Assembly (NCBI GenBank): GCA_013334245.1
Contig: JAAXXZ010000002.1
Span: 21,166-85,165 of the forward strand
Length of the DNA stretch: 64,000 bases
Direction: 5' to 3'
DNA from: Candidatus Moraniibacteriota bacterium
Lineage (GTDB): Bacteria; Patescibacteriota; Minisyncoccia; Moranbacterales; UBA1568
Shown piece by piece: positions 28,889-59,271 of the stretch. Positions within the stretch are counted from its first letter, which is position 1; every line of letters starts with the position of its first letter. The notes below the pieces were generated by a model. It searched no databases. It saw nothing but the letters and a program-made list of their open reading frames with translations, and was not told the origin of the DNA. The position numbers and the translations under genes were made by a program.

Positions 28889-30490
28889 ATGAGGATCATC
28901 CGGAACAGGGTCTTTTTTTTGGTAAGTCTCATCGTTGCCGTGACGATGACGGTCATGTTCCTCGTGACCTCCTACTTTCTCATGAAGGGATTCGGACAGG
29001 AAGAGGTTTCCCGCGCAAACGAGGAAGCTAATCGCGCGACGGAGCTTCTTTCAAGCCAGATCGATCAGCTGAACCTGAAATTGGCCGATTGGGCCCAGTG
29101 GGACGACTCGTATGAGTTCATACAGGATTCGGATCCGGACTACATAAAGTCGAACGTGAACAACGAGGCGTTGAAGATTCTCGGCATCGAGTCGATGATC
29201 TTCGTCAATGATGAAGGGCGGATCGTCCAATCTCTCAGTATCGACCCCGAGACCGGGACCGAGATGTCGTTGCCGCGCGGCTTGGAGGAGCACCTTCGGA
29301 AGGGGGATTTCCTCGTCAGCCACGAGGATGTAAAGAGTGCGAAGAAGGGCGTGCTCAATCTCGATGATGGGCCCGTCATGGTCGCGTCTCAGCCTGTCGT
29401 GAAAAGCGACGGTGAGGGGCCTGCGAAGGGTACGATCGTTTTTGTCAGTTATCTTGATAAGAAGTGGCAGAAGGATTTTACGGGTATCATCCATTTTCCG
29501 TTTTCAGTCGCATCGTTCCGTGATCCGAGGCTTTCACGCGAATTTTCCCAGGCCAAAGCCGGGCTTTCCGCGGACCGGCCCGTAACGGTCACAGAGCTGA
29601 ACGATGAGACTCTTGCCGTGTTCGGGCTGATGCCGGACGTATACGGTGAGCCGGGACTGCTGTTTCGGATGGAGATTTCCCGGGACATGCATCAGCAGGG
29701 TATGCGGACCTTGTACGTTTTCGCTTTCCTGCTCGCGGCGATAGGCCTGTTGTTTTTCTTCTCGCTCTCCTCGCTTCTGCGTCGTGAGGTCCTCGCGAGG
29801 CTTGAACAATTGTCGGAGGTCGTTTCCGAGATACGGCTTTCCGGAGGCTCGAAGATTCCCCATATTTCAATTTCTGGAGACGATGAGATCGCACAGCTGG
29901 CCGAAAAAATCAACGAGATGGTCGACGTATTGCGCAAGACGAAGTTGCGCGGCGAGGAGAGCGAACGGCGTTTTCAGACGATCGCCGATACGACCCCTAT
30001 CATGATCTGGATGTCGGACAAAACAGGGCTGTTCACATATTTGAACAAGGGGTGGCTTGAATATACGGGAAGAGAGTTCGATGACGTGATCGGGGAGGGA
30101 TATATGCAGGATATCCACATTCTCGATCGGGAGAAGGCCGTTGCCGCGTATCGTGAGGCATTCGAGAAGAGGCGGCCGTTCCGCACGGAGTTCCGATTGA
30201 GGCGGCATGATGGCGAATATCGGTACATGTTGGGAAACGGCGTGCCATACTATGCCGCACTCGGGGAGTTCCTCGGGTATGTGGGTGTGTGTTTTGATAT
30301 ACAGGACCGGCATGCCGTGGAGATGAAGCGTGAGGAGCGTATCGAGGAAGTCGAAAAACTGAACGCGGTCATGATCAGCCGCGAGCTTCGTATGGTCGAG
30401 CTCAAGGAGGAAGTGAAGCGTCTGCGCAAGGAGCTGGACGAAATGGGCGCGGCGATGTCACGTAAGAAGTCGGGAAGATCGGAAAAGTGA
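28889..30490 (+). CDS. Sensor protein: 2-TM periplasmic CHASE4-like sensor domain - HAMP-like linker - PAS; lacks kinase core (probable N-terminal part of a split histidine kinase)
   Basis: TM1 (aa 8-30), about 240-aa periplasmic domain (LADWAQWDDSYEFIQDSDPDYIKSNVNNEALKILGIESMIFVNDEGRIV), TM2, amphipathic linker, PAS (IMIWMSDKTGLFTYLNKGWLEYTGREF...). There is no HisKA/HATPase domain. Confidence 0.75.
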   Translation: MRIIRNRVFFLVSLIVAVTMTVMFLVTSYFLMKGFGQEEVSRANEEANRATELLSSQIDQLNLKLADWAQWDDSYEFIQDSDPDYIKSNVNNEALKILGIESMIFVNDEGRIVQSLSIDPETGTEMSLPRGLEEHLRKGDFLVSHEDVKSAKKGVLNLDDGPVMVASQPVVKSDGEGPAKGTIVFVSYLDKKWQKDFTGIIHFPFSVASFRDPRLSREFSQAKAGLSADRPVTVTELNDETLAVFGLMPDVYGEPGLLFRMEISRDMHQQGMRTLYVFAFLLAAIGLLFFFSLSSLLRREVLARLEQLSEVVSEIRLSGGSKIPHISISGDDEIAQLAEKINEMVDVLRKTKLRGEESERRFQTIADTTPIMIWMSDKTGLFTYLNKGWLEYTGREFDDVIGEGYMQDIHILDREKAVAAYREAFEKRRPFRTEFRLRRHDGEYRYMLGNGVPYYAALGEFLGYVGVCFDIQDRHAVEMKREERIEEVEKLNAVMISRELRMVELKEEVKRLRKELDEMGAAMSRKKSGRSEK

Positions 30491-32280
30491 GCACTCATAT
30501 GGAAACAGGAACGACAAAAGTCGGCGCTTCGGGGCGAAGGATGTCCCCCCGGTCGCTCGATGCCGTGTCTGTCGCAAAAAACTCAGACAAAAAATTGGTA
30601 ATATCCGATGATGTGAACAGTGGCGATGTCGAGGACGTCGTATCGCTTGCTGAGCTGGAATCCCGCAACAGGACCCTTCGGAATACCGAGCGTGCCATCA
30701 TGAATGTTCTGGAGGATACGCTTGAAATCCAGGAGAAATATCGGTACGAGGCCGAGGAGCTTCGGAAGTTCCGCATGGCTGTTGACAATAGTCCTATCCA
30801 TACGGTGATAACGGATATCGACGGTCTTATCCTGTATGCCAACGATGCCGTCGAAAGGACAACGGGATATACCGCGGAGGAGATGTTCGGTGAGACGCCG
30901 CGACTGTGGGGGAAGCAGATGCCGATCGAATTCTATGAGGATCTCTGGAAAACCATAAAAACCCTCAAGAAGCCGTTTTTCAGCGAGATTACGAACAAAC
31001 GGAAAAATGGACGGCAGTATATAGTGGACGCGGGAATTTTTCCGTTGCTCGATGAGAAGGGAGACGTGAGTTTTTTTGTCGGGGTCGAGCGGGACGTCAC
31101 TCCCGAAAAGCGGTATCAGGAAGAGTTGCTTGCTCAGGCATCGGTTCTCGAAAAGACGAATATTGAAATCCTGAAGGAGAAGGAGCGCGCCGAAGGAGTG
31201 CTACGGTTCCTGCGCTCCATCGGCAGCGGGGTATTCGCGACCGATCGTGAAGGAAGAATCGTATTCATGAACAAGTCGGCGGAAGATCTGACGGGATATC
31301 CGGTGTCCGACACCGAAGGAAGCCATTATTCGAAGATATTCTGCTTTTCGTTCGAACATAATCGTACGCCGGGCTGTGCGAGAATAGTCGAGGAGGCTAT
31401 CGATGAAAATCGGTCGGATCGGGGCGGCGCGACCCGTATCGTCATTACCCGTCGGGATGGGGAGGAAGTTCCCGTCACGTATACGGCCGCGCCGATACGC
31501 GATGCGGAGGGGGTGGCGATCGGCTGCATCGTGACGTTGGAAGACGCGAGCCGGGACCGGCAGACGGAAGCCCTCCGTGATGACTTTCTTTCGGTCGCGG
31601 CTCATCAGCTTCGTACTCCGCTTACCGGCATCCGCTGGGGACTCGAGTTGCTGCTCGAAGAGAAAGACGTTCCCGAATCCGTCCGGAAAGAGTTGACCAA
31701 GATCCACGAAAGCAGCCGTCAGATGTCGTACCTCATTGACGGACTTATCGATGAGTCAAGGTTGGACCAGGTGATCCGCACGGAAATGCCCGAGTGCGTC
31801 GATCCGGCCAATATCGTGGCGGAAGTGGTGGACGGCTTGCGTTCCGAGGCGAAACGGATCGGAACGAAAATGTCGTTGCATTCCGAGGGAAAGGGTGGGG
31901 CCATGGTCGTCCCACGCGCCGGATTGTTGGAGGTCGTGCGAAATATCGTTTCGAATGCCGTGAAATACAGTCGCAAGGGAGGGTCGGTGGAGATAGTGAC
32001 GTCACGTAAGGACGGATATTTCCTCGTGAGCGTCGCAGACAGCGGCATAGGGATACCGAAGAGCGAACAGGACCGCGTATTCTCGAAATTCTTCCGGGCG
32101 ACGAATGCCGTACTGAAGGAAAGCGAGGGTGCCGGAATCGGGCTTTCGGCGGTGAAGTCATTTCTTGACGGGATGGGCGGTCGGATCTGGTTTGAGAGCG
32201 AGGAGGGCGTCGGTACGACGTTTTACGTCGAGGTTCCCGATCTGTCGGCTTCGAAACATGGGAAGCGTAAGGCAAAATGA
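30487..32280 (+). CDS. PAS-PAS-HisKA-HATPase_c histidine kinase (C-terminal part of split sensor kinase)
   Basis: Two PAS domains, an H-box (LSVAAHQLRTPLTGIRWGLELL), and N/G1/G2 boxes (NAVKYSRKGGSV, DSGIGIP, GAGIGLS). The GTG start overlaps the upstream stop (GTGA). An alternative ATG lies at 30499. Confidence 0.85.
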   Translation: MSTHMETGTTKVGASGRRMSPRSLDAVSVAKNSDKKLVISDDVNSGDVEDVVSLAELESRNRTLRNTERAIMNVLEDTLEIQEKYRYEAEELRKFRMAVDNSPIHTVITDIDGLILYANDAVERTTGYTAEEMFGETPRLWGKQMPIEFYEDLWKTIKTLKKPFFSEITNKRKNGRQYIVDAGIFPLLDEKGDVSFFVGVERDVTPEKRYQEELLAQASVLEKTNIEILKEKERAEGVLRFLRSIGSGVFATDREGRIVFMNKSAEDLTGYPVSDTEGSHYSKIFCFSFEHNRTPGCARIVEEAIDENRSDRGGATRIVITRRDGEEVPVTYTAAPIRDAEGVAIGCIVTLEDASRDRQTEALRDDFLSVAAHQLRTPLTGIRWGLELLLEEKDVPESVRKELTKIHESSRQMSYLIDGLIDESRLDQVIRTEMPECVDPANIVAEVVDGLRSEAKRIGTKMSLHSEGKGGAMVVPRAGLLEVVRNIVSNAVKYSRKGGSVEIVTSRKDGYFLVSVADSGIGIPKSEQDRVFSKFFRATNAVLKESEGAGIGLSAVKSFLDGMGGRIWFESEEGVGTTFYVEVPDLSASKHGKRKAK

Positions 32281-32369
32281 ATCAAAGCGGTCTTTTCGTG
32301 GAAGGGTGAGTGAAGCGGCGCAAGGCGACAGGGCATAATTTTGTCGAAATAAGTATTCCAAGAACGCGT

Positions 32370-32747
32370 ATGGCGTCAACGAAAGGAAATGTGTTAGTCG
32401 TCGAAGACGACGAGTTTATCTCTGCAATCTATGAGAAGAAGCTGACGACGGAGGGATATTCGGTCAGATTGGCGAAAAACGGCGAAGAGGCGCTTCGGAT
32501 GATGCGCGAGGAACGGCCAGACGTCGTCTTGCTCGATATTATTATGCCGATAAAGGACGGGTTTGATACGTTGACGGAGATGCGGGCGGACGAACACCTG
32601 AAAGACATACGAGTGGCTGTGCTTTCGAATCTGAGCGATGACCGTGAAATGGGTCGTATGAAAGAGCTTCACGCGATAGACTACCTCGTCAAGGCGAACG
32701 TGTCGGTTCAGGAACTGGCTGGGAAGGTCGCGGCCTATATTGGCTGA
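32370..32747 (+). CDS. Single-domain response regulator (CheY-like receiver)
   Basis: NVLVVEDDEF...DVVLLDIIMP (phospho-acceptor Asp)...VAVLSNLS...K. The track ORF starts at 32310, but MASTKGNVLVV is the more typical start. Confidence 0.85.
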   Translation: MASTKGNVLVVEDDEFISAIYEKKLTTEGYSVRLAKNGEEALRMMREERPDVVLLDIIMPIKDGFDTLTEMRADEHLKDIRVAVLSNLSDDREMGRMKELHAIDYLVKANVSVQELAGKVAAYIG

Positions 32748-33846
32748 ATTGGCGACGGAAAAGGGAACGAGTATGTCTGAAGTATTCCATGTCAAACGCC
32801 GACAGATCGGCGCACTGTATCGGCTGTGTGCGTTGTTCGTATTCGTTTTCCCGGCGAGTGCGAATTATCAGCTGCAGGGATACGGATTCGGAAGCGGAGG
32901 GGAGGAGAATGCGACGTCGGCGAATTACGCGCTGGACGCCATGACCGGTGAGACCGGAGCGAGCAATCTGGTTGGAGCGAATTATTCTCTGGGCGCCGGG
33001 CTTTCGTTTGCCCAGCAGGCGGATGTGCCGGCTGCCCCGACGTTCACGAATCCGAGCAATTATTACAACAAGCTCCATCTCGTCATCAATACGTCCGGCA
33101 ACGCGAGCGATGCACTCTTTGCGATCGCCATCAGCACGGACGGTTTTGCGACCACGAACTACGTGAAAAGCGACCATACGGTCGGTGCCACGCTCACGCT
33201 TTCCGACTATCAGACCTATGCGGCCTGGGGCGGCGCAACGGGTATCGATGTTATCGGACTCACCGCAAATACGACGTACCAGGTGAAGGCCAAGGCCATG
33301 CACGGCAAATTCACGGAAACCGGATACGGTCCGACTGCGAGCGCGGCCACCGTCAATCCGACGCTTTCCTTCGGTATCACGACCGATACGCAATCGAGCC
33401 CGCCGTTTTCCGTCGATTTCGGCGTCATGGTTCCCGGATCGGTCAATACGAGTCCTCATCAGGTCAACGTCACCATGAATACGAACGGGGCGAACGGGGG
33501 ACAGGTATACCTATCCGGTGCTAATGCTGGTTTGCGGAGTGCCGGCGTCAGTTACACGATCGCCGCGGTGTCCGGAAACCTCTCGTCGCTGTCCGAAGGA
33601 TTCGGCGCACAGGGGATTTCCGCGACCCAGACATCCGGTGGCCCGTTCACGATCGCGACGCTTTACAATCAGGGGAGTGATATCGTTGGCATCACCGATA
33701 CGAACGTGCGGACCATTTTCACCAGCGCGGGACCTGTGGTCGGCGCAGCCGGATCGTTCAATTTCAAGGCGAAGCCGTCCTCGATCGCACCCGCCGCAAG
33801 CGATTATTCGGAAACGCTGACGATAGTGGCAGCGGGTAGTTTCTGA
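32740..33846 (+). CDS. Secreted Thr/Ser/Gly/Ala-rich protein, paralog A (C-terminal ...DYSETLTIVAAGSF; SCPU/Csu-pilin-like C-terminal motif suspected)
   Basis: N-terminal hydrophobic signal (ALYRLCALFVFVFPASA), beta-rich low-complexity body, and a C-terminal motif shared with the next ORF. Confidence 0.65.
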   Translation: MAELATEKGTSMSEVFHVKRRQIGALYRLCALFVFVFPASANYQLQGYGFGSGGEENATSANYALDAMTGETGASNLVGANYSLGAGLSFAQQADVPAAPTFTNPSNYYNKLHLVINTSGNASDALFAIAISTDGFATTNYVKSDHTVGATLTLSDYQTYAAWGGATGIDVIGLTANTTYQVKAKAMHGKFTETGYGPTASAATVNPTLSFGITTDTQSSPPFSVDFGVMVPGSVNTSPHQVNVTMNTNGANGGQVYLSGANAGLRSAGVSYTIAAVSGNLSSLSEGFGAQGISATQTSGGPFTIATLYNQGSDIVGITDTNVRTIFTSAGPVVGAAGSFNFKAKPSSIAPAASDYSETLTIVAAGSF

Positions 33847-33897
33847 TCGATGTGACTCAAATGATTCTTAGCGACGGTTTTGGACGCTTGTCGAAAT

Positions 33898-33909
33898 AAG
33901 TGCTATAAT
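33898..33909 (+). promoter_or_regulatory. Extended -10 promoter (TGcTATAAT) upstream of paralog B
   Basis: gtgctataat about 40 nt upstream of the 33948 ATG. Confidence 0.4.
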
Positions 33910-33947
33910 TTCACCAAGATTTCCGAAACGCAAAGTCGCAAACGAGT

Positions 33948-34997
33948 ATGGAATTCAAAGGAAAGAAAATCGTCTCGATAATCGGCGTGGTCGCCATCCT
34001 CGTGGCGATAGTGGCGCCGATCGTGATGATTCAGAACGCGAAAGCTTCCGGTCTTACGCAGGCATACGTACGTCTGGATCGACTGAAGACCGCGACCGCG
34101 ACTACGGGTTTGGTGTGCGCGCGACCGACGACCGCAACGACAACGAATATTGATGTCGCAGTCACTTTTCCGACCGTTGCCGTTACGAATTATATCGTCA
34201 GTTCGACGGCATCGAAATGGGCGGCAACCGGTTCCAATATCCCAACAGGAACGACTGCATGGCCGGGAATAGCATCGGCCACGGTGACAGTTTCCGGGCA
34301 AAAGGTCACGTGGACCTATGCTGCACAGACGCTCAATACCGGTACGACATATTGCTTCACGTGGGCAGATTCGACGGCACTGACGACGTCAGCTGCCGGA
34401 GTGGATCAGTTGGGTCTTATCGAGCTGCATAATACCGGTCCGACGCTTACGGATTCCTCACAATATGCGCTTTCAATCATCGCCAACGATCAGGTATTGA
34501 TTACCGGTACGGTAAATCCAACCTTTACCTTCAGTCTCTCACAGACTTCTACCTCGTTCTCCAGTATCGGTACATCCGTAGTCAATGCCAGTCCGACTCC
34601 CGTCGTCTCGGTTACGACCAATGCGAGGAACGGATATACGGCCTGGGTGCAGGACGCAAATAATGGAACGCTGAATTCGGCTGGTGCAAGTACCAATATT
34701 CCCGCTCCGGGCGCTGTCGGTTCGAATTACGATCTGGCGACACTGACGGCTAACGGCGCGTTCGGACTCGGTGTCACCGTAAGCGGCGGCAGTACGACTG
34801 CGGCTACGGAATACAACGGGGCTACGACGGGTCATGCCGGAGCATTGTCCACGTCTTTTCGACCGATGGCTTCCTCGACGACAGTTTCAGCAGGGGATAC
34901 GATAACGATGATTCCACGAGCTATCGCGAAAAGCACACAGGCACCGGCCAACGACTATACGGATACGCTGACGGTAGTTGCTGCCGGACAATTCTAA
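33948..34997 (+). CDS. Secreted Thr/Ser/Gly/Ala-rich protein, paralog B (C-terminal ...DYTDTLTVVAAGQF)
   Basis: Signal/TM (IVSIIGVVAILVAIVAPIV), a similar composition, and a C-terminal motif matching paralog A. A terminator follows at 35006-35041. Confidence 0.65.
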   Translation: MEFKGKKIVSIIGVVAILVAIVAPIVMIQNAKASGLTQAYVRLDRLKTATATTGLVCARPTTATTTNIDVAVTFPTVAVTNYIVSSTASKWAATGSNIPTGTTAWPGIASATVTVSGQKVTWTYAAQTLNTGTTYCFTWADSTALTTSAAGVDQLGLIELHNTGPTLTDSSQYALSIIANDQVLITGTVNPTFTFSLSQTSTSFSSIGTSVVNASPTPVVSVTTNARNGYTAWVQDANNGTLNSAGASTNIPAPGAVGSNYDLATLTANGAFGLGVTVSGGSTTAATEYNGATTGHAGALSTSFRPMASSTTVSAGDTITMIPRAIAKSTQAPANDYTDTLTVVAAGQF

Positions 34998-35005
34998 AGC
35001 CTGAA

Positions 35006-35041
35006 GGCCTCTAAGGCCCCGGAGAAGTCCGGGGCTTTTTA
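35006..35041 (+). terminator. Rho-independent terminator
   Basis: gccccggagaagtccggggcttttt. Confidence 0.7.
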
Positions 35042-35051
35042 ATAACGAAAA

Positions 35052-36182
35052 ATGGTGTATAATTGGGGCATTACAGATATCATCCCTATGATCCAAAACT
35101 TCTTCCGAAGAATCGGAACAGTCGGGGTTCTCGTTACGTCTCTTATTTGCTTCTACCCGATTGCCTCTCAGGCACAATCAACCGGCGAACTGCGTCTGAC
35201 CACATCGCCATTGCCAATCAATCTGAAGGTGGCGCCGGGATCGTCGGTGTCCGCGCCTATCAAGATTAAGAATGACGGGAATCTGAACGAGAATCTCAAG
35301 GTGATTCTGATGAAGTTCAAGGCGGATTCGGATACCGGCGTAGCGCAGTTGGTGGAGCGCGGGCCTTCGGACAGCTATTTCGATTGGGTCACCTTTTCCG
35401 ATCCGACGTTCACACTGACTCCGAACGAGTGGAAGACCGTCACCGCGACGTTCAATGTCCCGTCGACGGCGGCGTTCGACTATTACTACGCCATCGTCTT
35501 TTTCCGGGCGGATCAGCAGGTCGGTGCCGGAGATCGGCAAGCGGTTCTCAATGGGGGCACGGCAACGCTTGTATTGCTGACCGCCGACGTACCGAACGCG
35601 AAGAAGCAGTTGAATCTTGATTCGTTCTCCGTTGACAAGAACATCTTTGAGTTTCTGCCGGCGACATTCGATGTCCGAATCAGGAATACCGGTGATGTCC
35701 ATGTGATTCCACACGGGAACATCTTCATCAGCGATCAGGGCGGGAAGGATGTCGCCACGCTCAACGTCAACGATACACAGGGCTCCATACTTCCGGACTC
35801 GCCGCGTGATTTTCAATCGGCTTGGAGTGACGGTTTCCCAAAATACGTTTTTAAGGAAGAGAACGGAGTGAAGACGAAAGATTCCAAAGGGAATCCGATT
35901 CAGGAACTGAACTGGAACTGGGCAGATGCCGCGAAACTGCGGTGGGGAAAATATACCGCGAAGATGGTCATGGTGTATGACGACGGCCGTCGGGACGTAC
36001 CGATCGAAGCTGAGGCCTCCTTCTGGGTCATACCGTGGAGACTGATCGGTGGATCGCTGGTGATACTCCTGCTCGTCCTCATCGGATTGAGATCGGCCCT
36101 GCTCAATTTCTGGAACCGACTGCGGCGTGTTTCCGGCGGGAAGTCGGGCACCGGAAGCGGAACGGGACAGAAGAAGAAATAA
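35052..36182 (+). CDS. Cell-surface protein with signal peptide and C-terminal TM anchor (DUF916/DUF3324-like architecture), paralog 1
   Basis: Signal peptide (VTSLICFYPIASQAQS), beta-sandwich-like body (LRLTTSPLPINLKVAPGSSVSAPIKIKNDGNLNENLKV...), C-terminal TM (LIGGSLVILLLVLIGL), and a basic/Gly tail. Clear paralogy with the 36323 ORF. Confidence 0.65.
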   Translation: MVYNWGITDIIPMIQNFFRRIGTVGVLVTSLICFYPIASQAQSTGELRLTTSPLPINLKVAPGSSVSAPIKIKNDGNLNENLKVILMKFKADSDTGVAQLVERGPSDSYFDWVTFSDPTFTLTPNEWKTVTATFNVPSTAAFDYYYAIVFFRADQQVGAGDRQAVLNGGTATLVLLTADVPNAKKQLNLDSFSVDKNIFEFLPATFDVRIRNTGDVHVIPHGNIFISDQGGKDVATLNVNDTQGSILPDSPRDFQSAWSDGFPKYVFKEENGVKTKDSKGNPIQELNWNWADAAKLRWGKYTAKMVMVYDDGRRDVPIEAEASFWVIPWRLIGGSLVILLLVLIGLRSALLNFWNRLRRVSGGKSGTGSGTGQKKK

Positions 36183-36322
36183 CACCGTGTAAGAGTCGTC
36201 GCGACACATCAGATCGGCTATCTACGTAGCCGATTTGATTGTCACTGGTATACTTGAAGATATCGACGCGGGGTGAACGGCGGATTCGGATCCGTACATG
36301 CGTCGAAGAATGATCAAACGAT

Positions 36323-37249
36323 ATGAAGCATGTATTTTCAGTGTCGGTACTGCTCGCAGGGCTTTTCCTTCCCCTTCCATTTTCAAGATGTTTCGCCGAG
36401 TCGGCTCCCGCATCCGGATTCACTATCAGTCCGTTCTATCGGGAAATAGACATCCAAAAGAGTCAGGAAAGGGTTTCCTTCGCGATCGACGTGACGAATA
36501 ATTCCCAACAGATCGCGGAATTCCGCGTTTCAGTGCTCGATTTCGGCGCGCTCGACGAGACGGGCGGCGTCGCCTTTCTGGGATCATCGGATTCTTTGAA
36601 GTATGCACTCGCTTCCTGGGTGCAACTTGAGAACGATACGCTCCTTATCAAGGCCGGCGAGACCCAGACCGTCAGGGGGTATGTCGAAAACAGGGATTCC
36701 CTGTCACCCGGGGGTCATTACGGGGCGATTTATCTGAAATCCGAAGGGCCGGGTGTCTCCGCTGAAACGCGCCGGAATGTCGCCTTCGACCCGTCCATGG
36801 CATCGCTCCTGTTCGTCCGTAAAGTCGGCGGCGAGGTATACGATATGCGGCTTGATGGTCGGGAGTATCCGCAGTCGCTTTTCACACTTCCATCGTCGGT
36901 CACGCTTCGGTTTCAAAATATCGGAAACGTGCATGTCATACCGCGCGGAACGGTCAAGATCACAGATCCTCTCGGTCGTGTCGTGCGGAGCGGGGTTATC
37001 AATGAGCAGTCTGGTATCGTCCTGCCGGAGGCGTTCCGGAAGCTGTCGGCGAACCTGATGCGTGTGGAAACGCCTTTCATCCCCGGCCGATACACCGTGA
37101 CGATCGGCTACCGGTATGACGGAAAGGATTCAACCGACAGCAATATATCGGATTATATCTACATACCGCCCATCTTCGCACTGGCAATGGCCGTCATTGT
37201 AGTACTATCCATGCTTACGTTCCGTTATCTGCGCGCAAAAAACGTATGA
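36323..37249 (+). CDS. Cell-surface protein with signal peptide and C-terminal TM anchor, paralog 2
   Basis: Signal peptide (VSVLLAGLFLPLPFSRCFAES), shared motifs with paralog 1 (GHYGAIYLKS vs YYYAIVFFRAD; NVHVIPRGTVKITD vs DVHVIPHGNIFISD), C-terminal TM. Confidence 0.65.
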   Translation: MKHVFSVSVLLAGLFLPLPFSRCFAESAPASGFTISPFYREIDIQKSQERVSFAIDVTNNSQQIAEFRVSVLDFGALDETGGVAFLGSSDSLKYALASWVQLENDTLLIKAGETQTVRGYVENRDSLSPGGHYGAIYLKSEGPGVSAETRRNVAFDPSMASLLFVRKVGGEVYDMRLDGREYPQSLFTLPSSVTLRFQNIGNVHVIPRGTVKITDPLGRVVRSGVINEQSGIVLPEAFRKLSANLMRVETPFIPGRYTVTIGYRYDGKDSTDSNISDYIYIPPIFALAMAVIVVLSMLTFRYLRAKNV

Positions 37250-37845
37250 GCGAAGCAAACGTCAAGCCCGGTCGAGCAAAGCGTCTCGTGACCATTTTTC
37301 TGGTAGTTCTTTGTATTTGCGGTGCCGTCTTCCTCTACTTTTTTGCGAATCAGCCGTCGCGAGATACCAAAAAGAGCACATTGGCAACTTCGGATACCAA
37401 AACGGCGGTCCAAAAACCACAAGAAGAATTTGCAGGGAAGTACGTTTCGTTCACACATGGCGGTGATTACGTGGTCAAGACGCATGATACGGATGAGCGA
37501 GAGGGCGCCGTTATTTTGGAAAGCGCCTATCTGAGTGAAACGTCGGCATTATCAAAAAAAATCGGCTTGACGGTGCGATTTCTGCCCTCAAAGAGCGCGG
37601 ATGCTGATCCGGACTATACCATGCGACGGCAGAATCCCGATCGTTACCGGATGGATTCGTTCGATTTTGACGGGATGCAGGGAACATCGTTCACGTCCGT
37701 CGACACGGGGACATTCGAGAAGACGTGCTTTATGCGACACGGGGACAAAATGGTTTCCCTTACGCTGGGTGCTCCCGGCGCGGAAGATGCAAAAGTCGAT
37801 GCCGAGGCCGAAGCGCTCGTGCGGAGCATCCGATGGAACCAATAG
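37246..37845 (+). CDS. Hypothetical membrane-anchored protein (translationally coupled to preceding gene, ATGA overlap)
   Basis: N-terminal TM (LVTIFLVVLCICGAVFLYFFA) and a soluble domain with no recognisable motif. Confidence 0.55.
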   Translation: MSEANVKPGRAKRLVTIFLVVLCICGAVFLYFFANQPSRDTKKSTLATSDTKTAVQKPQEEFAGKYVSFTHGGDYVVKTHDTDEREGAVILESAYLSETSALSKKIGLTVRFLPSKSADADPDYTMRRQNPDRYRMDSFDFDGMQGTSFTSVDTGTFEKTCFMRHGDKMVSLTLGAPGAEDAKVDAEAEALVRSIRWNQ

Positions 37846-38015: not shown

Positions 38016-38044
38016 TTTGAGGCTTGACCAAAGGATTTTTTTGC
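38016..38044 (+). promoter_or_regulatory. Consensus promoter TTGACC-17-TATACT upstream of giant gene
   Basis: cttgaccaaaggatttttttgctgtatact. Confidence 0.55.
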
Positions 38045-38067
38045 TGTATACTGTCTCTAGAGATATA

Positions 38068-38115
38068 TGAACGGGTGGCCCGGATTCCTTTTCCGGGCAC
38101 CCGTTTTCTTTTTGC
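38068..38115 (+). promoter_or_regulatory. Leader stem-loop with T-run (terminator/attenuator-like) in 5'UTR of giant gene
   Basis: aacgggtggcccgg-attcctttt-ccgggcacccgtt followed by ttctttttg, between the promoter and the ATG at 38123. Confidence 0.45.
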
Positions 38116-38122
38116 GGCAGCT

Positions 38123-41100
38123 ATGTTGGAGGGAAAAACAAAACACATTTCAAAAATTGCCTTGTATTCCGGAATTCTCGTGATTCTCGGGATTTTTTCG
38201 TTTTCTCAGGAGGCCTTGGCGGCTACTGGAATCAACAGTCAGATCAATTTTCAGGGCAAAGTGGTCAATACCGACGGCACGAACGTTGCGAACGGGAACT
38301 ACAACATGATATTTCGCGTCTATACGGCCTCATCCGGCGGATCGGCGATCTGGACGGAGACATGGAACTCGGGCACGTCGCAGGTCGGCGTTACGGACGG
38401 CATATTCCAGGTCGCGCTCGGAACGCATACATCGTTTCCCGGGTCTATCGACTTCAACACGGACAACATCTACCTCACGGTCGAGTTTAACGGCAACGGC
38501 GAAATGAGCCCGCGTATCCGATTCACTGCCGTTCCCTATGCCTTCAACGCGGAAAAGGTTTCGGGACTGACCGTGACGGATACGACGGGAACGCTGACCG
38601 TCGCGAACGGGAAAACGGTCTCATTCGCCGACGCGTTCACGACTTCCGGAGCCTATCCCCTTACGCTGACAACGACCGCCTCGACCAGCCTTACGCTTCC
38701 GACGACGGGGACGCTGGCGACGCTCGCCGGATCGGAACAGCTCACGAACAAGACCATCGGCTCCACGGGACTGGTATTTTCCGGGGCAACGACGGATATT
38801 GATGCTGCAACCGGGGAAGGGCTTGCGATTCAGGGTCGCGCCGCGTCCTCGTTTTCGACGACGTCCGGGACATTGACGTTCGAGTCTGCCGGAACAGGAA
38901 CAACGGGTATCGTGCAGGTAGGCTCGGGCGGATCCGGATCTGCGACACCGGACTATTTCGGTCTTGACGTGAAGTCGACGACTGGGGATCCCGCCGCCGG
39001 TTTCGAGGGAGCGATGTACTACAACACGTACGACAATAAATTCCGTTGTTATCAGGGTTCGGCCTGGGCGGATTGTATCGGGAGCGGATCGGGCGGCATG
39101 AGCATCGGTGGCACGATTACGAGCGCTACGCAGGGCTCAATCCTTTTCGCCGGATCGGCTGGTATTCTTGCTCAGGATAACGCGAACTTTTTTTGGGACG
39201 ATGCGAATGATTCCCTTGGCCTTGGCACAGCCACCCCGGCTGCCACCCTCGATGTCATTGGCGACGCTCATTTTGGCGACGTCACGAACTATACGGGTAT
39301 CGATGTTGACGGGGACCTTTCCTTTACCGGTACCGCTGACTATCTGGTCGGCGCTAATGACTATGCCTTTCGATATTCCGGAGACGAGGATTTCGGCATG
39401 TTCTTTAATGGCACCAGTGGGACGGTCGACTTACTCGGAGACGGACAGGCGCTCGCCCACCGGTTCAGTGTTGTTGGCGGCACATCATATATCAGCACGG
39501 CACTCGGCATCGGGACGACAGGACCGGATCATATGCTCGACGTCCTCGACGCGTCCAATCCGCAACTGCGCCTCACACATACCGATGGGACCGTCTATAC
39601 CGACTTCCAGACGACCTCTGCCGGAGACCTCACGATCACGCCGTCGGGCGGAGATATGACACTTGTCGGCAATCTTCTCCCGGGAGGCACTTCCGGCACC
39701 TACAACCTCGGTTCCGATACCGCCCGATGGGGTGACCTCTACCTCGACGGCGACACGATCCATATCGGCGCCTCCACAACTGACGAAGGCACCATCGGTT
39801 ACAATGCCTCGACGAACATTCTCTCTTTCGGCACCGATGCTACGACCAACGGCGACATCGCCTTCTTCACCGACGATCTGTATCTCGACAAGTCGAGCGG
39901 ATATGTGGGGATCAATACCACCGCTCCATCCGACCGTTTTCACCTCAAGGGTGGCACGCTACGTGTGGATGCGCCGTCGAATCCCACACTGACAGGTACC
40001 TACAATACGAGCGGATATGCACAAGGTGTCGCCGTGTCCGGTCGCTATGCCTATGTCGCCGATTCTACCGCAGGCCTCCACATCATCGACATATCCAATC
40101 CCGCAAGCCCGTCCCTTGTCGGTACCTACAATACGAGTGGAACTGCATACAGTGTCGCCGTGTCCGGCCGTTATGCCTATGTTGACGACTCCGCTTCAGG
40201 CCTCCACATCATCGACATATCCAATCCCGCAAGTCCGTCCCTTGTCGGTACCTACGATACGAGCGGATATGCATACAGTGTCGCTGTCTCCGGCCGCTAT
40301 GCCTATGTCGCCGATTCTACCGCAGGCCTCCACATCATCGACATATCCAATCCCGCAAGCCCGTCCCTTGTCGGTACCTACGATACGAGTGGAGACGCAA
40401 TCGGCGTCGCCGTGTCCGGTCGCTATGCCTATGTTGCCGATCATAGCTCAGGCCTCCACATCATCGACATATCCAATCCCGCAAGCCCGTCCCTTGTCGG
40501 TACCTACAATACGAGTGGAACTGCATACAGTGTCGCCGTGTCCGGTCGCTATGCCTATGTTGCCGATGTGGGTTCCGGCCTCCACATCATCGACATATCC
40601 AATCCCGCAAGCCCGTCCCTTGTCGGTACCTACGATACGAGCGGATATGCACAAGGTGTCGCCGTGTCCGGCCGCTATGCCTATGTTTCTGATTCTACCG
40701 CAGGCCTCCAAGTCATCGACATATCCAATCCCGCAAGCCCGTCCCTTGTCGGTACCTATAATACGAGCGGAGAAGCAATCGGCATCGCCGTGTCCGGCCG
40801 CTATGCCTATGTTTCCGATTCTACCGCAGGCCTCCAAGTCATCGACATCGGCGGTACCGATACCCATGCCCTCGTCGCCGGCGAAACCGAGACCGGCTTC
40901 CTCTCCGTCAATGGCAATGCCCAAGTGGCGCAGAACCTCTCGGTGAACGGGGGACTGTCTGTCGGTCCGGGTGGTATTCTCTCGCAGGGAGCGGGATCGG
41001 TGTATGCCAACGGTGCCAATACCGCCTTTACAGTGACACAGTATGGTACTGGCGACATTCTCAATCTTTTCGACGGCGCGACCGAAGTATTGACCGTTCT

Positions 41101-43810
41101 TGACGGTGGCAACGCCGGTATTGGCACTTCCTCCCCCGACCGTCGTCTCGACGTCCTCGACACCTCCAATCCGCAACTGCGCCTCACCTATACCGACGGC
41201 TCGGTCTATACCGACTTCCAGACGACCTCTGGTGGAGACCTCACGATCACGCCGTCGGGTGGGGATACCCGCGTTGCGGGAACCCTGGGCATTCTCGAAG
41301 GTGGCACCACACCTAGCTACTACACGATCTTCCAGGGAGGGGACCAGAGTGCCGACATTACCTATACCCTCCCGACCGGAGCTCCGGCGTCGAACGGGTA
41401 TGTGCTCTCGTCAACGACCGAGGGCGTGATGTCGTGGATTGCGGCGGGATCTGGCAGTACGACGCTTCAAACCGCTTATAATACCACTAGCGGTAACACC
41501 ATAACGACGACGACCGGAAGGAACGTCATCTTCACGTTGGCGGAACTCGCGACAGCGACCTCGTTTACGATCGAGAACCAGGATACGGGCGGTGCGGCGG
41601 CGGAGAAGATTACGAACTCCATCGCGTCCGGCACGCTGACTAACGGACTCCAGTTCGAGCAGACCGGTGCAGGCACGGTTACGAATGCCATAAGCATCCT
41701 GAGAACGGCGGGGACCATCACGAAAGGCATCGACATTTCCGGCACCGTGGGAACGGGCATTTCGATCGGCTCGAGCGTTACGACCGGCATCGCCTTCGCC
41801 GGGACGACGAATACGATCGATATGAACAATGCCTCGAACAGTACGCTTTCCATAACAAACTCGGGGACCGGTGTCGCGTCGGTCTCTGTCGAGGCGGGAG
41901 GTTCCTATACCGGCGCGGGCGCGGTGACGCTCTCATCTGCCGCTGCGACGGGTCTGACGATCGACTCCGGTACGACGGGCAACCTTGATATCGGCACCGG
42001 TGCCAATGCCAAGACCGTTACGATCGGAAACGCCACCGGAGCAACCGCGGTGAACATCAGTTCTGGGACGGCCGGTATCAAACTGCAGGCAGCCGGAACC
42101 GGCACTACCGGAACCGTGCAGATCGGTGAGGGCGGCCTTACGGGGTCGACGACGCCCGATCTCCTGGCTTTCGATACGAAGAGTGACTCGGGAAATCCGG
42201 CCGGAGCGGAAGGAAAGATGTACTATAACCTGTACGATCACAAGTTCCGCTGCTATCAGAACTCAGACTGGACGGATTGCGTGGGTATCACGTCCATCAA
42301 TACCACGTTGCCGGTGTTCCGTGCCGTGGGAACGTCGGCTACTGGAACCGGCGCGGTCAACCCGGGACTGCCTGCCGGGCACGTCGCGAACGATATCTTG
42401 ATCTTGTTCGTGCAGTCCGACAACGAGGCGGTGACGGCACCGGCCGGATATACGCAGATCGGCCCACAGCACGGCAGCGGTACGAACGCGACCGCCCTCG
42501 GGAACCGTTTGGCCATGTTCTGGAAACGTGATTCCGGATCGGAAAGCGCCCCGACCGTCGCGGACTCCGGGGACCACACTTTCGCGGTCATAGCGGCGTT
42601 CAGCGGTTGTCCGACGACGGGCGATCCGTTCAAATATATCGCTGGCGGCGAGAAATCGACGGCGAGCGTGACGGGAACGGCTAGCGGCGGACAGACGACC
42701 ATAGACAATTCGCTCGTCGTCGTGGCATTCGCCAACTCCGTCGACGGGGCGACATCGACGATGTATAGCGGTTGGACGAATGCGAGCCTTTCAAGTGTCA
42801 CGGAAATATTCGATACGGGTGTCGCGGATGGAAACGGCGGCAGTATCGGTATCATGACAGGCGCGAAGGCATCGGCTGGATCGGTCAGTTCGACGACGGT
42901 GACGGAGACCAGTGCCGTAGACGCTTATACGACCATAGCCCTTCTTCCTGCCGATGAAAAACAGATCGGAGCCTCGAACGAGGGTGTCGAGATACAGGAA
43001 TTCACCAATACCAACGCGACCGCGGATACGTGGGTCATGCCGTACGGCGCGCAGTCGGTGGAAATCATTGCAATCGGTGGCGGCGGTGCAGGAGGCCAGG
43101 GTATCGCTGCGACCGCCGCAGGCGGTGGTGGTGGTGGAGGTGGAGCCTATTCTAGAAAAGTTTTCGATGCATACGAATTGCCATCTACTCTGACGGTTAC
43201 CGTCGGCAAAGGCGGTGTCGGCGGCGCGACCAAATCCGCCGCGACGGCGTCGACCGTGACGGGAGGCGGTAGGACGCTTGTCAGCGCGGGATTCGGCGTG
43301 ATCGGAATCGCAGCTTCGTCTGGGAGCGGCGGCGGAGGCGGTGGCGGTGGTTCGGTGGGATCGCTGGCAGTCGCGGCAAACGGAAATCCCGGCGTACAGG
43401 GCCCTGGCGGCGGTGGCGCGGGCGGTGGAACGGGCGCGACGACCGGAGCTGTCGGAGGAAAAGGCTATGAAGGCGGTGGCGGTGGTGGAGGCGGAAAGAA
43501 CGCCGCAGGAACGGGAACCGGTGGGACCTCGGAACACGGTGGTGGTGGTGGAGGAGGGGGAGGTTCCGTGACGAACGGAGCCGTCGGTGGTGTCGGCGGC
43601 GCGGGTCAGGCTGGCGGTAGCAACGCGGGTGGGTCCGCGACGGCAACCGGTATGTTCACGCTGGGAGGGTCCGGGGGAGGAGGAAACTTCAGCACGGGAA
43701 CCGGCGGCAACGGCGCACAGCCGGGCGGTGGTGGCGGTGGAGGAGGTGCCACGACGAACAACGGTGGTAACGGCGCTGCCGGTGCGATCACAATCATCGT
43801 GCATTTCTAG
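38123..43810 (+). CDS. Giant secreted surface protein (~1896 aa) with 7 LVIVD beta-propeller repeats, internal large-scale duplication and C-terminal poly-Gly region
   Basis: Signal peptide ([24 protein letters not shown]). LVIVD-type repeats ([31 protein letters not shown]) x7. Duplicated blocks (MYYN.YD.KFRCYQ.S.W.DC.G; [36 protein letters not shown]). Gly-rich tail (runs of 8-9 Gly). The track start at 38024 precedes the predicted promoter, so the ATG at 38123 is preferred. Confidence 0.8.
39989..40870 (+). repeat. Seven near-identical in-frame 126-bp tandem repeats (LVIVD units) inside giant gene
   Basis: The unit cttgtcggtacctacaatacgag...ccaatcccgcaagcccgtcc recurs at 40115, 40241, 40367, 40493, 40619 and 40745, with a first degenerate unit at about 39989. 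Nucleotide identity is very high. Confidence 0.9.
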
Positions 43811-44716: not shown

Positions 44717-45742
44717 TTGCGTGTGATTTTCGTAATGGGTATAATGGTCTCAAAGAGAAATATAAACGGAACACGTATGCCGCAAAAGAAAAAAACGAAT
44801 GCCATATCGGCGGAGGCGCCGCTTGAGTCGGAAACCGAACCGAAGAAAACGCTTGCCACGATGAAGACATTCCAGAAAAATGAATCCGTTCAGGTGGCTC
44901 CCGTCGCAGTGAAGACGAAGCCAGGTATCAAGATCACGAAAGTTTCGGATTCCGGTAAGACGAGCCGGAAAGACAAGACCGGGATGACGATGTGGTTCGT
45001 CGGTGCTGTCCTTCTGTTGGCCGCACTCGGAGCGGCGATCTATTTCTATATCGCGTACCGCCAGGCGATCGAAGCCAGACCGGCGGAAAGCGAGGTCGGA
45101 CAGCTGATCGCCCGCATCTCTCGTTTTATGGAGCTCCCGGCCGGAGAGACGCCCACTTTGGCGACCGTCACCGATAAGGGAAAGTTGTCCGGTCAGGATT
45201 TTTTTGCGATCGCCGAAAACGGGGACAAGGTCCTGATCTACGAAAAGGCGGCGAAGGCGGTATTGTTCCGCCCATCGACCGGCAGGGTCATGAATGTCGC
45301 TCCTATAAATACGTCGGCGGAGACGGAGAAAACGTCGGCCGAACCCGCCACCCAGACGCTAGCCGAGTCTCCCTCGGAGAATGTGACGCCGACGGAGCCG
45401 GCGACGACGGATGGCGCTGCAGCGGCCCAGATTCAATCTGCGCCGGTCGGTAAGGCGAAGGTGGCGCTCTATAACGGCAGTACGACGGTCGGGATAACGA
45501 CGAAGGTGGAAAAGGAGCTTGCAACGGGCTTGGCCGATTCGGTGGAAGTGGTCGCCAAGGACGCCGCTTCCAAGAAAGATTACGAGGGGGTGACGGTCGT
45601 TGATCTTTCGGGGGCGAGGTCGCAGGATGCGTCGTCCATAGCGGGTTTGCTCGGGGGGGCCGTCGCAACCGCTCTTCCAGACAGCGAGGCGACTCCGGAG
45701 GGGGCGGATATCGTCGTCATCATCGGCAACGTGAAAAAGTGA
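44717..45742 (+). CDS. Membrane-anchored protein with C-terminal LytR_C-like domain
   Basis: TM (MWFVGAVLLLAALGAAIYFYIA). The C-terminus (KVALYNGSTTVGITTKVEKELATGLADSVEVVAKDAA...VVIIGN) resembles the LytR_C domain of the 28226 ORF. Start uncertain (alternative MPQKKK at 44778). A terminator follows at 45768-45795. Confidence 0.55.
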   Translation: MRVIFVMGIMVSKRNINGTRMPQKKKTNAISAEAPLESETEPKKTLATMKTFQKNESVQVAPVAVKTKPGIKITKVSDSGKTSRKDKTGMTMWFVGAVLLLAALGAAIYFYIAYRQAIEARPAESEVGQLIARISRFMELPAGETPTLATVTDKGKLSGQDFFAIAENGDKVLIYEKAAKAVLFRPSTGRVMNVAPINTSAETEKTSAEPATQTLAESPSENVTPTEPATTDGAAAAQIQSAPVGKAKVALYNGSTTVGITTKVEKELATGLADSVEVVAKDAASKKDYEGVTVVDLSGARSQDASSIAGLLGGAVATALPDSEATPEGADIVVIIGNVKK

Positions 45743-45822
45743 GGAGACTTTTCTTTCGGACTGAAAATCCCCTGAGAAGGGGATTTTTTTCTTTTTTATC
45801 CGCTTTTCCGTATAATGGAATC

Positions 45823-47269: not shown

Positions 47270-47587
47270 ATGGAAACGCTTTCATTGATCGTCGACTCGA
47301 TTCTCTTCGTCTCACTCCTACTTTCCATCGTTTTCACCGCCGGAGTGGTGTGGCGAGTCGAAATGAGGCTCGATGTCTCATATAAGTTCTATCTCGCGGC
47401 CATCGTCTGTTTTCTCCTGGCGGAAATTTTCGATCTCTGGTATGTTCCGGAGACCAGGGAGATAGCGATCTTAGCCTCTCATGCGCTCCGAACGCTCTTT
47501 TCGGTCCTGTTCCTGGCCGGCATCCTGTCCATGCGGCGCATCGTGCGCGATATGGACGGGGAACGCCGAAAGAAGGGACGAAAATAA
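47270..47587 (+). CDS. Hypothetical small membrane protein
   Basis: Three hydrophobic helices. Start at METLSLIV, 2 nt after the previous stop. Confidence 0.45.
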   Translation: METLSLIVDSILFVSLLLSIVFTAGVVWRVEMRLDVSYKFYLAAIVCFLLAEIFDLWYVPETREIAILASHALRTLFSVLFLAGILSMRRIVRDMDGERRKKGRK

Positions 47588-47614
47588 GGGAATAACCGGT
47601 AATGCCCAGAGACA

Positions 47615-53983: not shown

Positions 53984-53984
53984 A

Positions 53985-54581: not shown

Positions 54582-54652
54582 ATATGTACTGATATGGTAC
54601 TTTAAGTACCCTTTCAGTAACAATAGTAGCATATTTTGATACTGCGCGCAAG

Positions 54653-56540: not shown

Positions 56541-56571
56541 CGACATCTTCGGGAGGGAGTATGATGATATG
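56541..56571 (+). repeat. Intergenic repeat family copy R4 (cgacatcttcgggagggagtatgatgatatg)
   Basis: Identical core to R1 and R2. Confidence 0.7.
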
Positions 56572-59270: not shown

Positions 59271-59271
59271 T

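What the first reader, a model, noticed from the sequence alone, without database searches (positions are those of the whole stretch)
32740..37845. Surface-structure locus: two paralogous secreted T/S/G/A-rich proteins with SCPU/Csu-pilin-like C-terminal Y-x-D/E-T-L-T-V-V motif + two paralogous signal-peptide/C-terminal-TM (DUF916/DUF3324-like) proteins + coupled membrane protein
The first pair (368 and 349 aa) both start with a hydrophobic signal and end with ...DYSETLTIVAAGSF and ...DYTDTLTVVAAGQF. This resembles the C-terminal beta-strand of spore-coat-U/archaic Csu pilin subunits (Y-x-D-T-V-T-V-T). The second pair (376 and 308 aa) share several motifs and have the topology of Gram-positive WxL-locus DUF916 proteins: cleavable signal, beta-sandwich, C-terminal membrane anchor. 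A fifth, coupled membrane protein follows. The locus sits downstream of a split sensor kinase and response regulator, and upstream of the giant LVIVD protein. A pilin-like fibre assembled by chaperone-like DUF916 proteins would be a non-canonical appendage system. I cannot confirm the family assignments from memory alone.
Basis: partly seen in the sequence, partly recalled or inferred. Interest (0 to 1): 0.65.

Follow-up and report, generated by a model that had tools for sequence, protein, structure and literature searches.

The report
WxL-like surface cluster in Moranbacteria
A gene cluster conserved in ultra-small Moranbacteria (candidate phyla radiation, CPR) encodes two membrane-anchored proteins distantly related to Gram-positive "WxL-interacting proteins", next to two secreted proteins that share an undescribed C-terminal domain; it is probably a new way of tethering proteins to the cell surface.

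Summary
Five co-directional genes (A to E) sit at 32740-37845. A and B are paralogous only in their last ~165 residues. C and D are paralogous over ~245 residues. D and E overlap by 4 nt.

C and D are remote homologues of WxLIP (DUF916+DUF3324+TM helix):
- hhalign gives 96.7% probability over both domains.
- The best Foldseek hits are the solved E. faecium WxLIP structures, followed by pilus chaperones (CfaA, CsuC, FimC).

A and B are not SCPU/Csu pilins and are not WxL proteins by any sequence test. They share a new C-terminal domain ("CTD") ending in DY(T/S)(D/E)TLT(V/I)(V/I)A..F. It has 1216 representative clusters. It ends at the C-terminus in all 150 best hits, and it is also fused to proteases and adhesins.

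The order A-B-W-W(-W)-E-giant protein, where W is a WxLIP-like gene, recurs in 66 of 79 related loci.

Best reading: a Patescibacterial counterpart of the Firmicute WxL cluster. Membrane-tethered, chaperone-like WxLIP homologues would capture CTD-bearing secreted proteins by strand insertion. The binding itself is inferred, not shown.

Verdict: new variant of a known kind, moderately interesting.

The parts
32773..33846 (+). Gene A: secreted protein, 357 aa from Met12 (the ORF opens at TTG 32740). It has a signal peptide, three NYxL...G repeats, an FN3-like domain and the shared C-terminal domain (CTD).
   Evidence: There are >=1230 homologues at 54-68% identity. There is no Pfam or NCBIfam hit.
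33343..33846 (+). CTD of A (residues 202-368). It ends in DYSETLTIVAAGSF (33802-33843).
33948..34997 (+). Gene B: secreted protein, 349 aa. It has a signal peptide, an Ig-like N-terminal domain with two invariant Cys, and the CTD.
   Evidence: The AF2 model has pLDDT 91.3 and shows two beta-sandwich domains.
34497..34997 (+). CTD of B (residues 184-349). It ends in DYTDTLTVVAAGQF (34953-34994).
35052..36182 (+). Gene C: WxLIP-like protein, 376 aa. It has a signal peptide, two Ig-like domains and a C-terminal TM helix (residues ~322-355, 36015-36116) with a basic tail.
36323..37249 (+). Gene D: WxLIP-like protein, 308 aa. It has a signal peptide, a DUF916-like domain, a DUF3324-like domain and a TM helix (residues 283-307, 37169-37243).
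36539..36619 (+). Loop in the first domain of D (residues 73-99, DFGALDETGGVAFLGSSDSLKYALASW). It holds the densest cluster of near-invariant residues. AF2 pLDDT is below 50 for residues 80-94. It is the candidate inserted (donor) strand.
   Evidence: Conservation. pLDDT. It aligns to the conserved NGV..YS...KY loop of genuine WxLIPs. The role is inferred from PMC10599100 and from the title of PDB entry 9i25, which lists WxLIP bound to long WxL.
37246..37845 (+). Gene E: single-pass membrane protein, 199 aa, with an N-terminal TM helix and a ~150-aa ectodomain. Its start overlaps the stop of D.
   Evidence: An E-like gene is present in 53 of 79 related loci.
38024..43810 (+). Giant secreted protein, 1928 aa, with LVIVD x7 and Gly_rich_2. 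Its N-terminal ~270 residues (residues 60-330, 38201-39013) are conserved in the gene that follows E in 51 related loci. It has no CTD.

Best explanation
This is a conserved cell-surface gene cluster of Candidatus Moranbacteria (CPR/Patescibacteria). It is built on the same plan as the Gram-positive WxL (Csc) cluster.

Proposed steps, each marked shown or inferred:
1. All five proteins are exported by Sec (inferred from the signal peptides).
2. C and D stay in the cytoplasmic membrane through a C-terminal TM helix. They expose two Ig-like domains that are remotely homologous to WxLIP (DUF916+DUF3324). The fold also resembles pilus chaperones (shown at the level of homology and fold).
3. A and B are released. 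They carry different N-terminal domains and a common ~165-residue C-terminal beta-sandwich domain (CTD) whose last strand, DY(T/S)(D/E)TLT(V/I)(V/I)A..F, ends the protein (shown).
4. The highly conserved loop in the first domain of C and D, which the AF2 monomer model leaves disordered, becomes a beta-strand. It inserts into the CTD, as predicted for WxLIP-WxL; the title of PDB entry 9i25 says the two proteins are bound together. This tethers A and B to the cell surface (inferred).
5. Other secreted proteins that carry the same CTD (a subtilase, TIG/NHL adhesins, lectin-like proteins) are tethered the same way (inferred).
6. E and the giant protein, whose N-terminal domain is conserved, are further parts of the same surface structure (inferred from synteny only).
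For: **C and D are WxLIP homologues.**
- PF06030 hits D at E 9e-4 and hits 31 of 47 family members, best E 1.2e-6.
- hhalign of the D family against three genuine WxLIPs gives 96.7% probability, E 3.8e-10, over 228 columns that span both domains.
- A local HMM of the D family hits the Firmicute WxLIPs at E about 1e-6.
- Foldseek's best PDB hits for the D model are 9i25_C, "WxLIP bound to long WxL" (E 1.5e-11), and 9i1y. Next come CfaA, CsuC, FimC, Caf1M and PapD.
- Topology is a signal peptide plus a C-terminal TM helix.

**The loop.**
- Residues 73-99 hold the densest cluster of near-invariant residues, while pLDDT is below 50 for residues 80-94.
- It aligns to the conserved loop of WxLIPs.
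- PMC10599100 predicts that this kind of loop inserts as a strand into WxL.

**The CTD.**
- A and B share it.
- There are 1216 representative clusters at E<=1e-3. In all 150 listed hits the match ends at the last or penultimate residue.
- It is fused to TIG, NHL, subtilase S8, Laminin_G_3 and Big_5 proteins.
- Some of these are encoded away from the cluster.

**Co-occurrence.**
- A-B-W-W(-W)-E-Giant, where W is a WxLIP-like gene, occurs in 66 of 79 loci from species-representative genomes.
- 11 of the 13 exceptions are cut by a contig end within about 0.9 kb.
Against: - No physical or predicted complex was obtained.
- The CTD shows no detectable sequence relation to the WxL domain (hhalign probability 0.3%; no PF13731 hit). 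The partner assignment therefore rests on synteny and analogy.
- The B model is a confident, apparently complete pair of beta-sandwiches. Nothing seen so far shows an open groove.
- D does not reach Pfam's curated cut-off (19.7 against 27.3 bits). PF11797 is not hit.
- The WxLIP motif NQIDKxxxYFDLK is absent.
Confidence: 0.55

Rival explanations
1. Usher-less donor-strand fibre. A and/or B polymerise into a pilus-like filament by strand exchange. C and D act as membrane-tethered chaperones or assembly platforms. CTD-bearing large proteins are tip adhesins, as FimH carries a pilin domain.
For: - The fold of D matches chaperone-usher chaperones as well as it matches WxLIP (TM-score normalised to the target 0.56 for CfaA, 0.44-0.47 for CsuC).
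- The last strand of A and B always sits at the free C-terminus and ends in an aromatic residue, as in chaperone-usher pilins.
- The mature N-termini of A (NYQLKDYGFG) and B (YVRLDRL) are highly conserved.
- A is unusually conserved for a surface protein, at 54-68% identity.
- There is a weak Foldseek hit to the CfaB pilin.
Against: - There is no SCPU or pilin family hit and no usher.
- In fusion proteins the B-type N-terminal strand is internal (P0383). It need not be a free donor strand.
- B folds as two apparently complete sandwiches.
- Fold hits for B are generic tandem-Ig proteins: integrin, FnBPA, cohesin dyad.
Confidence: 0.15
2. Two-component S-layer-like coat. A and B form a surface lattice (canopy). 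C and D are membrane-anchored stalks, as SlaB is for SlaA in Sulfolobus. The CTD lets other exoproteins join the layer, as SLH domains do.
For: - Secreted anchorless proteins are paired with partners anchored by a C-terminal TM helix.
- A is highly conserved and T/S/G/A-rich.
- The CTD is shared with exoenzymes.
- The cluster is near-universal in the lineage.
- From my own knowledge, not checked here: CPR cells have been reported to carry an S-layer-like envelope.
Against: - There is no evidence of lattice formation or of abundance.
- No S-layer family was hit.
- No paper found identifies CPR S-layer proteins.
- This reading overlaps the best explanation. It adds lattice formation to the same anchoring step.
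Confidence: 0.15
3. The genes are co-located surface proteins with no direct A/B-C/D binding. C and D bind cell-wall or host glycans on their own, and A and B are independent adhesins.
For: - No complex has been shown.
- The CTD is unrelated in sequence to WxL.
Against: - Gene order and co-occurrence are strictly conserved over many species.
- WxLIPs bind their neighbours: PDB 9i25 and the papers read.
Confidence: 0.1

Closest known systems
WxL / Csc cell-surface clusters of Firmicutes (small and large WxL proteins, WxLIP = DUF916+DUF3324+TM, a small LPXTG protein, a large adhesin)
   Same: - C and D are remote homologues of WxLIP with the same architecture and a conserved disordered loop.
- Two or more secreted proteins that share a strictly C-terminal domain lie next to the WxLIP-like genes.
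- That domain also sits at the C-terminus of large multi-domain adhesins and enzymes.
- A small membrane- or wall-anchored protein and a very large adhesin-like protein are in the cluster (for real WxL loci; here).
   Different: - The partner domain is not a WxL domain: there are no WxL motifs, no PF13731 hit, and hhalign gives 0.3%.
- There are two or three WxLIP-like genes per cluster instead of usually one.
- There is no LPXTG protein or sortase.
- The giant protein lacks the shared domain.
- The host is a CPR bacterium, not a Firmicute.
- D falls below Pfam's cut-off and lacks the NQIDK motif.
Chaperone-usher pili, especially archaic Csu and class 5 CFA/I (chaperones CsuC and CfaA; pilins CsuA/B and CfaB; SCPU family)
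   Same: - The two-Ig-domain fold of D matches CfaA, CsuC, FimC and Caf1M.
- The subunit-like proteins have a conserved last strand at a free, aromatic C-terminus.
- Capture by strand insertion is the likely common principle.
   Different: - There is no usher, and from general knowledge of Patescibacteria no outer membrane is expected.
- C and D are membrane-anchored, not soluble.
- A and B are not SCPU or pilin family members by any sequence test.
- A and B are about twice the size of pilins and have two domains.
SLH-domain and two-component S-layer anchoring (for example Sulfolobus SlaA/SlaB)
   Same: - One anchoring module is shared by major surface proteins and by exoenzymes.
- A secreted canopy protein is paired with a membrane-anchored stalk protein.
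   Different: - There is no sequence relation.
- Anchoring here would be protein to protein, through a WxLIP-like receptor.
- A lattice has not been shown.

Membership tests
WxLIP (DUF916+DUF3324+TM; Pfam PF06030 + PF11797), tested for C and D | Signal peptide, two tandem Ig-like domains, C-terminal TM helix | tested here: met
   The AF2 model of D shows two beta-sandwiches and a helix at residues 283-307. Hydropathy of C and D agrees.
WxLIP, tested for C and D | PF06030 (DUF916/PGBD) match above Pfam's gathering score | tested here: not met
   D scores 19.7 bits against a cut-off of 27.3, and C has no hit. 31 of 47 family members hit at E<=0.01, best 1.2e-6. Genuine WxLIPs score 142-147 bits.
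WxLIP, tested for C and D | PF11797 (DUF3324/HBD) match | tested here: not met
   hmmscan gives no hit. Genuine WxLIPs score 153-177 bits.
WxLIP, tested for C and D | Homology over both domains by profile-profile and fold comparison | tested here: met
   hhalign gives 96.7%, E 3.8e-10, over 228 columns. Foldseek's top hits are 9i25_C and 9i1y, EfmWxLIP1. The local HMM hits Firmicute WxLIPs at about 1e-6.
WxLIP, tested for C and D | Conserved N-terminal motif NQIDKxxxYFDLK | tested here: not met
   The D family has SPFFQEIxL at the aligned position.
WxLIP, tested for C and D | Encoded next to at least two WxL-domain (PF13731) proteins | tested here: not met
   The neighbours A and B have no PF13731 hit and no profile similarity to WxL. 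Two CTD proteins take that place in 66 of 79 loci.
WxL domain (PF13731), tested for A and B | Two conserved Trp-x-Leu motifs and a PF13731 match | tested here: not met
   No Trp is conserved across the A and B families. There is no Pfam hit. hhalign gives 0.3%. The positive control scores 213 bits.
WxL domain, tested for A and B | Domain always at the extreme C-terminus of secreted proteins, including large multi-domain ones | tested here: met
   All 150 listed hits end at the C-terminus, and 17 of them are longer than 450 aa. Their N-terminal domains are TIG, NHL, S8 and Laminin_G. The hits of ~200 aa are truncated fragments, so a CTD-only small form is not shown.
WxL domain, tested for A and B | Fold similarity to a WxL domain | not testable with these tools
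SCPU / Csu archaic pilins (PF05229), tested for A and B | PF05229 match, or sequence similarity to the solved CsuA/B | tested here: not met
   Pfam gives none. Profile searches of PDB sequences find nothing relevant, even at E<=10.
SCPU / chaperone-usher system | Usher plus a soluble PapD-like chaperone in the locus | tested here: not met
   No usher or PapD Pfam family is found in the five genes or the tested neighbouring genes. The fold of C and D resembles chaperones, but they are membrane-anchored.
SCPU / chaperone-usher system | Incomplete Ig fold completed by a donor strand | not testable with these tools

The most novel reading that the evidence does not exclude
Patescibacteria have their own protein-anchoring system. 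A ~165-residue C-terminal beta-sandwich ending in DY(T/S)(D/E)TLT(V/I)(V/I)A..F-COOH acts as a sorting and attachment tag on many exoproteins. Membrane-tethered, chaperone-like WxLIP homologues capture it by donor-strand complementation against its last strand. This would be an usher-less, monoderm relative of chaperone-subunit capture. It would form the base of the cell coat or of a fibre that carries the giant adhesin used in episymbiosis.
Probability: 0.3. Interest if true: 0.75.

Novelty: new variant of a known kind. Interest (0 to 1): 0.6.

Why it matters
- CPR bacteria are thought to live attached to other cells, yet their surface proteins are almost all annotated as hypothetical.
- This cluster gives a concrete, testable candidate for how one large CPR lineage displays proteins on its surface.
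- It extends the WxLIP family well outside the Firmicutes.
- It defines an unannotated C-terminal domain family (over 1200 representative clusters) that marks a set of surface-exposed proteases and adhesins.
- It points to a structural link between WxLIP-type anchors and pilus chaperones.

Tried and rejected
1. **SCPU/Csu assignment of A and B.** Pfam, NCBIfam and PDB-sequence profile searches were all negative.
2. **WxL homology of the CTD.** I recalled a WxL consensus from memory and used it only to fetch real WxL loci (E 7e-44). Pfam confirmed them. hhalign of the B family and of the CTD against 8 real WxL proteins gave 0.3%. Only a 9-13 residue A.(D/E)Y..T(L/I)T resemblance at the last strand remains, which is not evidence.
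3. **Fold search of B.** It found only generic tandem-Ig hits: integrin, FnBPA/ClfB, cohesin dyad, weak CfaB, viral "clumping factor".
5. **"Small" CTD-only proteins of ~200 aa.** They are truncated gene fragments, not counterparts of small WxL.
6. **Large ORFs hit by the full-length B profile in L010, L018 and L075.** They lack the CTD.
7. **The giant LVIVD protein.** It has no CTD.
8. **Regulation by the adjacent two-component system.** That neighbourhood is not conserved. The promoter and terminator scans were at chance level.
9. **Literature.** No paper links WxL or DUF916 with CPR, and none identifies CPR S-layer proteins.
Full report
**What is there.** The window carries five co-directional ORFs at the stated coordinates: A 32740-33846, B 33948-34997, C 35052-36182, D 36323-37249 and E 37246-37845. 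Gaps between them are 54-140 nt, and the D stop overlaps the E start by 4 nt. The public annotation of an identical protein starts A at Met12, position 32773 (P0241). Exact or near-exact copies are annotated as hypothetical proteins of Candidatus Moranbacteria MAGs, so the window comes from a CPR/Patescibacteria genome.

A and B are 47% and 50% T+S+G+A and have only an N-terminal signal peptide. C and D have a signal peptide plus a C-terminal TM helix followed by a basic tail. E has an N-terminal TM anchor.

**Paralogy.** A and B are related only in their last ~165-170 residues (38% identity, E 1e-11). C and D are related over ~245 residues (26%, E 8e-16). Each of the five genes has its own orthologues in other Moranbacteria loci: A 53-57%, B 40-42%, C 54-61%, D 43-49% and E 27-28% identity. 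Both duplications are therefore old.

**C and D.**
- Pfam gives D a sub-threshold hit to PF06030 (WxLIP_PGBD = DUF916): E 9e-4, 19.7 bits against a cut-off of 27.3. Of 47 family members, 31 hit it at E<=0.01, best 1.2e-6.
- I fetched genuine WxL loci from Bacillus and Enterococcus plasmids and checked them with Pfam as positive controls. WxLIPs scored 142-177 bits on PF06030 and PF11797. The two WxL proteins scanned scored 213 and 122 bits on PF13731.
- Profile-profile comparison of the D family with three genuine WxLIPs gives 96.7% probability, E 3.8e-10, over 228 columns that cover both the DUF916 and the DUF3324 domains.
- A local HMM of the D family also finds the Firmicute WxLIPs at E about 1e-6.
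- The AF2 model of D (pLDDT 84.8) shows two beta-sandwiches and a terminal helix.
- Foldseek's best PDB matches for that model are 9i25_C, "WxLIP from E. faecium locus A bound to long WxL" (E 1.5e-11), and 9i1y. They are followed closely by the pilus chaperones CfaA, CsuC, FimC, Caf1M and PapD, with TM-scores normalised to the target of 0.43-0.56. Searches confirm these are EfmWxLIP1 entries.

C and D are therefore remote WxLIP homologues with a chaperone-like fold. They are not members at Pfam's curated thresholds, and they lack the WxLIP motif NQIDKxxxYFDLK.

**The loop.** Residues 73-99 of D (DFGALDETGGVAFLGSSDSLKYALASW) hold 17 invariant or near-invariant positions. AF2 nevertheless gives pLDDT below 50 for residues 80-94. 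In the hhalign alignment the loop lies opposite the conserved NGV(I/V)(D/E)YS...KY loop of genuine WxLIPs. Hassan et al. (PMC10599100) report that a long hairpin loop of DUF916 is disordered in monomer models. In their AlphaFold2 complexes it becomes a beta-strand that fills a gap in the WxL sandwich. The title of PDB entry 9i25 lists a solved WxLIP bound to long WxL. That the D loop does the same is an inference.

**A and B.**
- Neither protein, nor any of 48 B homologues, hits any Pfam family at a meaningful level. In particular there is no hit to SCPU (PF05229) or WxL (PF13731).
- Profiles of the B family and of the shared domain find nothing relevant in PDB sequences, even at E<=10.
- hhalign against eight real WxL proteins gives 0.3%.
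- The AF2 model of B is confident (pLDDT 91.3) and shows two beta-sandwich domains. Its fold matches are generic tandem-Ig proteins: integrin, FnBPA/ClfB/SdrG, a cohesin dyad, and weakly the CfaB pilin.
- The resemblance of the last strand to SCPU or WxL C-termini remains a resemblance only.

**The shared domain (CTD).** An alignment of the C-terminal ~165 residues of both families has T41, N42, G46, L59, S61, I68, L80, D153, Y154, T159 and F166 invariant. A profile search of 1.84 billion representatives finds 1216 clusters at E<=1e-3 and 633 at E<=1e-10. In all 150 listed hits the match ends at the last or penultimate residue of the protein. Seventeen of these are 550-2564 aa long. Those scanned carry TIG repeats, NHL propellers, a subtilase with its prodomain, Laminin_G_3/DUF2341 or Big_5. 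Whole A-like or B-like modules can be fused behind other domains. Two such large proteins are encoded far from any WxLIP-like gene. The ~200-aa hits are truncated fragments. The CTD thus behaves like a C-terminal anchoring or sorting module, as WxL, SLH and similar domains do.

**Conservation of the cluster.** The C-terminal motif pattern matched 182 stretches in 596 Gb of species-representative genomes, and 164 are true relatives. In the 79 loci kept, HMM labelling shows the order A-B(-B)-W-W(-W), where W is a WxLIP-like gene, in 66 loci. Of the 13 exceptions, 11 are cut by a contig end within about 0.9 kb. One has a partial W at its end, and one is a fragmented assembly. E follows in 53 loci. 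A gene whose product shares the N-terminal ~270 residues of the window's giant protein follows in 51 loci. The commonest patterns are ABWWEG and ABWWWEG. The two-component genes upstream are not conserved neighbours. Many record titles (Gammaproteobacteria, Bdellovibrionales) are probably mislabels. The "Bdellovibrionales" loci are as close to the window as the Moraniibacteriota ones. The "Gamma/Pseudomonadales" ones form a more distant group.

**Interpretation.** The plan matches the Firmicute WxL cluster, as defined in PMC9772566 and PMC10599100: at least two secreted proteins with a shared, strictly C-terminal domain, plus a WxLIP. Real loci also have a small anchored protein and a large adhesin. 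Here the WxLIP component is homologous, but the partner domain is different and undescribed. I therefore read the locus as a Patescibacterial variant of that system. C and D are membrane-tethered receptors that capture the CTD of A, B and other exoproteins by strand insertion. Homology, topology, domain position and synteny are shown. The binding, the role of the loop, and the roles of E and the giant protein are inferred.

**Rivals.** The chaperone-like fold of D and the invariant free C-terminal strand keep the fibre idea alive. There is no pilin family signal and no usher. I found no paper that links WxL or DUF916 with CPR, and none that identifies CPR S-layer proteins.

**Verdict.** This is a new variant of a known kind, of moderate to good interest.

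Noticed in passing
window 38024-43810: The giant 1928-aa protein has LVIVD x7 and a glycine-rich C-terminus. Its N-terminal ~270 residues (residues 60-330, no Pfam hit) are conserved in the gene that follows the E gene in 51 of 79 related loci, while the rest of the protein varies. It is probably part of the same surface structure.
   Followed up: partly
window 45739-47268 and about 47270-47590: A 509-aa Big_13 protein is followed by a ~105-aa multi-pass membrane protein. Homologous pairs lie beside the cluster in L001 and L002 and in a few other loci (9 and 7 of 79).
   Followed up: partly
window 28889-32747: A split sensor: a CHASE4-HAMP-PAS protein without a kinase domain overlaps by 4 nt a PAS-PAS-HisKA-HATPase protein. 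A stand-alone receiver with no output domain follows. These are not conserved neighbours of the cluster.
   Followed up: partly
window 53288-54632 (- strand): An AbiEii toxin and AbiEi antitoxin pair (type IV toxin-antitoxin), with a MerR-family regulator at 52387-53112.
   Followed up: no
window about 56000-60000: A low-GC island (0.34-0.37 against about 0.54) with two ORFs of 830 and 367 aa that have no Pfam hit. It is probably foreign DNA.
   Followed up: no
L009-L087 (record titles): Many species-representative MAGs that carry the cluster are titled Gammaproteobacteria, Bdellovibrionales or Pseudomonadales. Their A, B and D orthologues are as close to the window as those of MAGs titled Moraniibacteriota, or form a sister group. 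These are probably taxonomic mislabels.
   Followed up: partly
L001 1-6733: In one Moranbacteria relative the cluster lies directly downstream of a type IV pilus-like gene set (T2SSE, T2SSF, N_methyl pilins). This was not seen in the window or in L002.
   Followed up: no
window 32863-33010 (A residues 42-90): The mature N-terminus of A begins with three short repeats of the form NY-x-L...G (NYQLQGYGFGSGG, NYALDAMTGETG, NYSLGAGLSF), which are highly conserved in the family. The same module is fused inside a larger protein (P0395). Their function is unknown.
   Followed up: no
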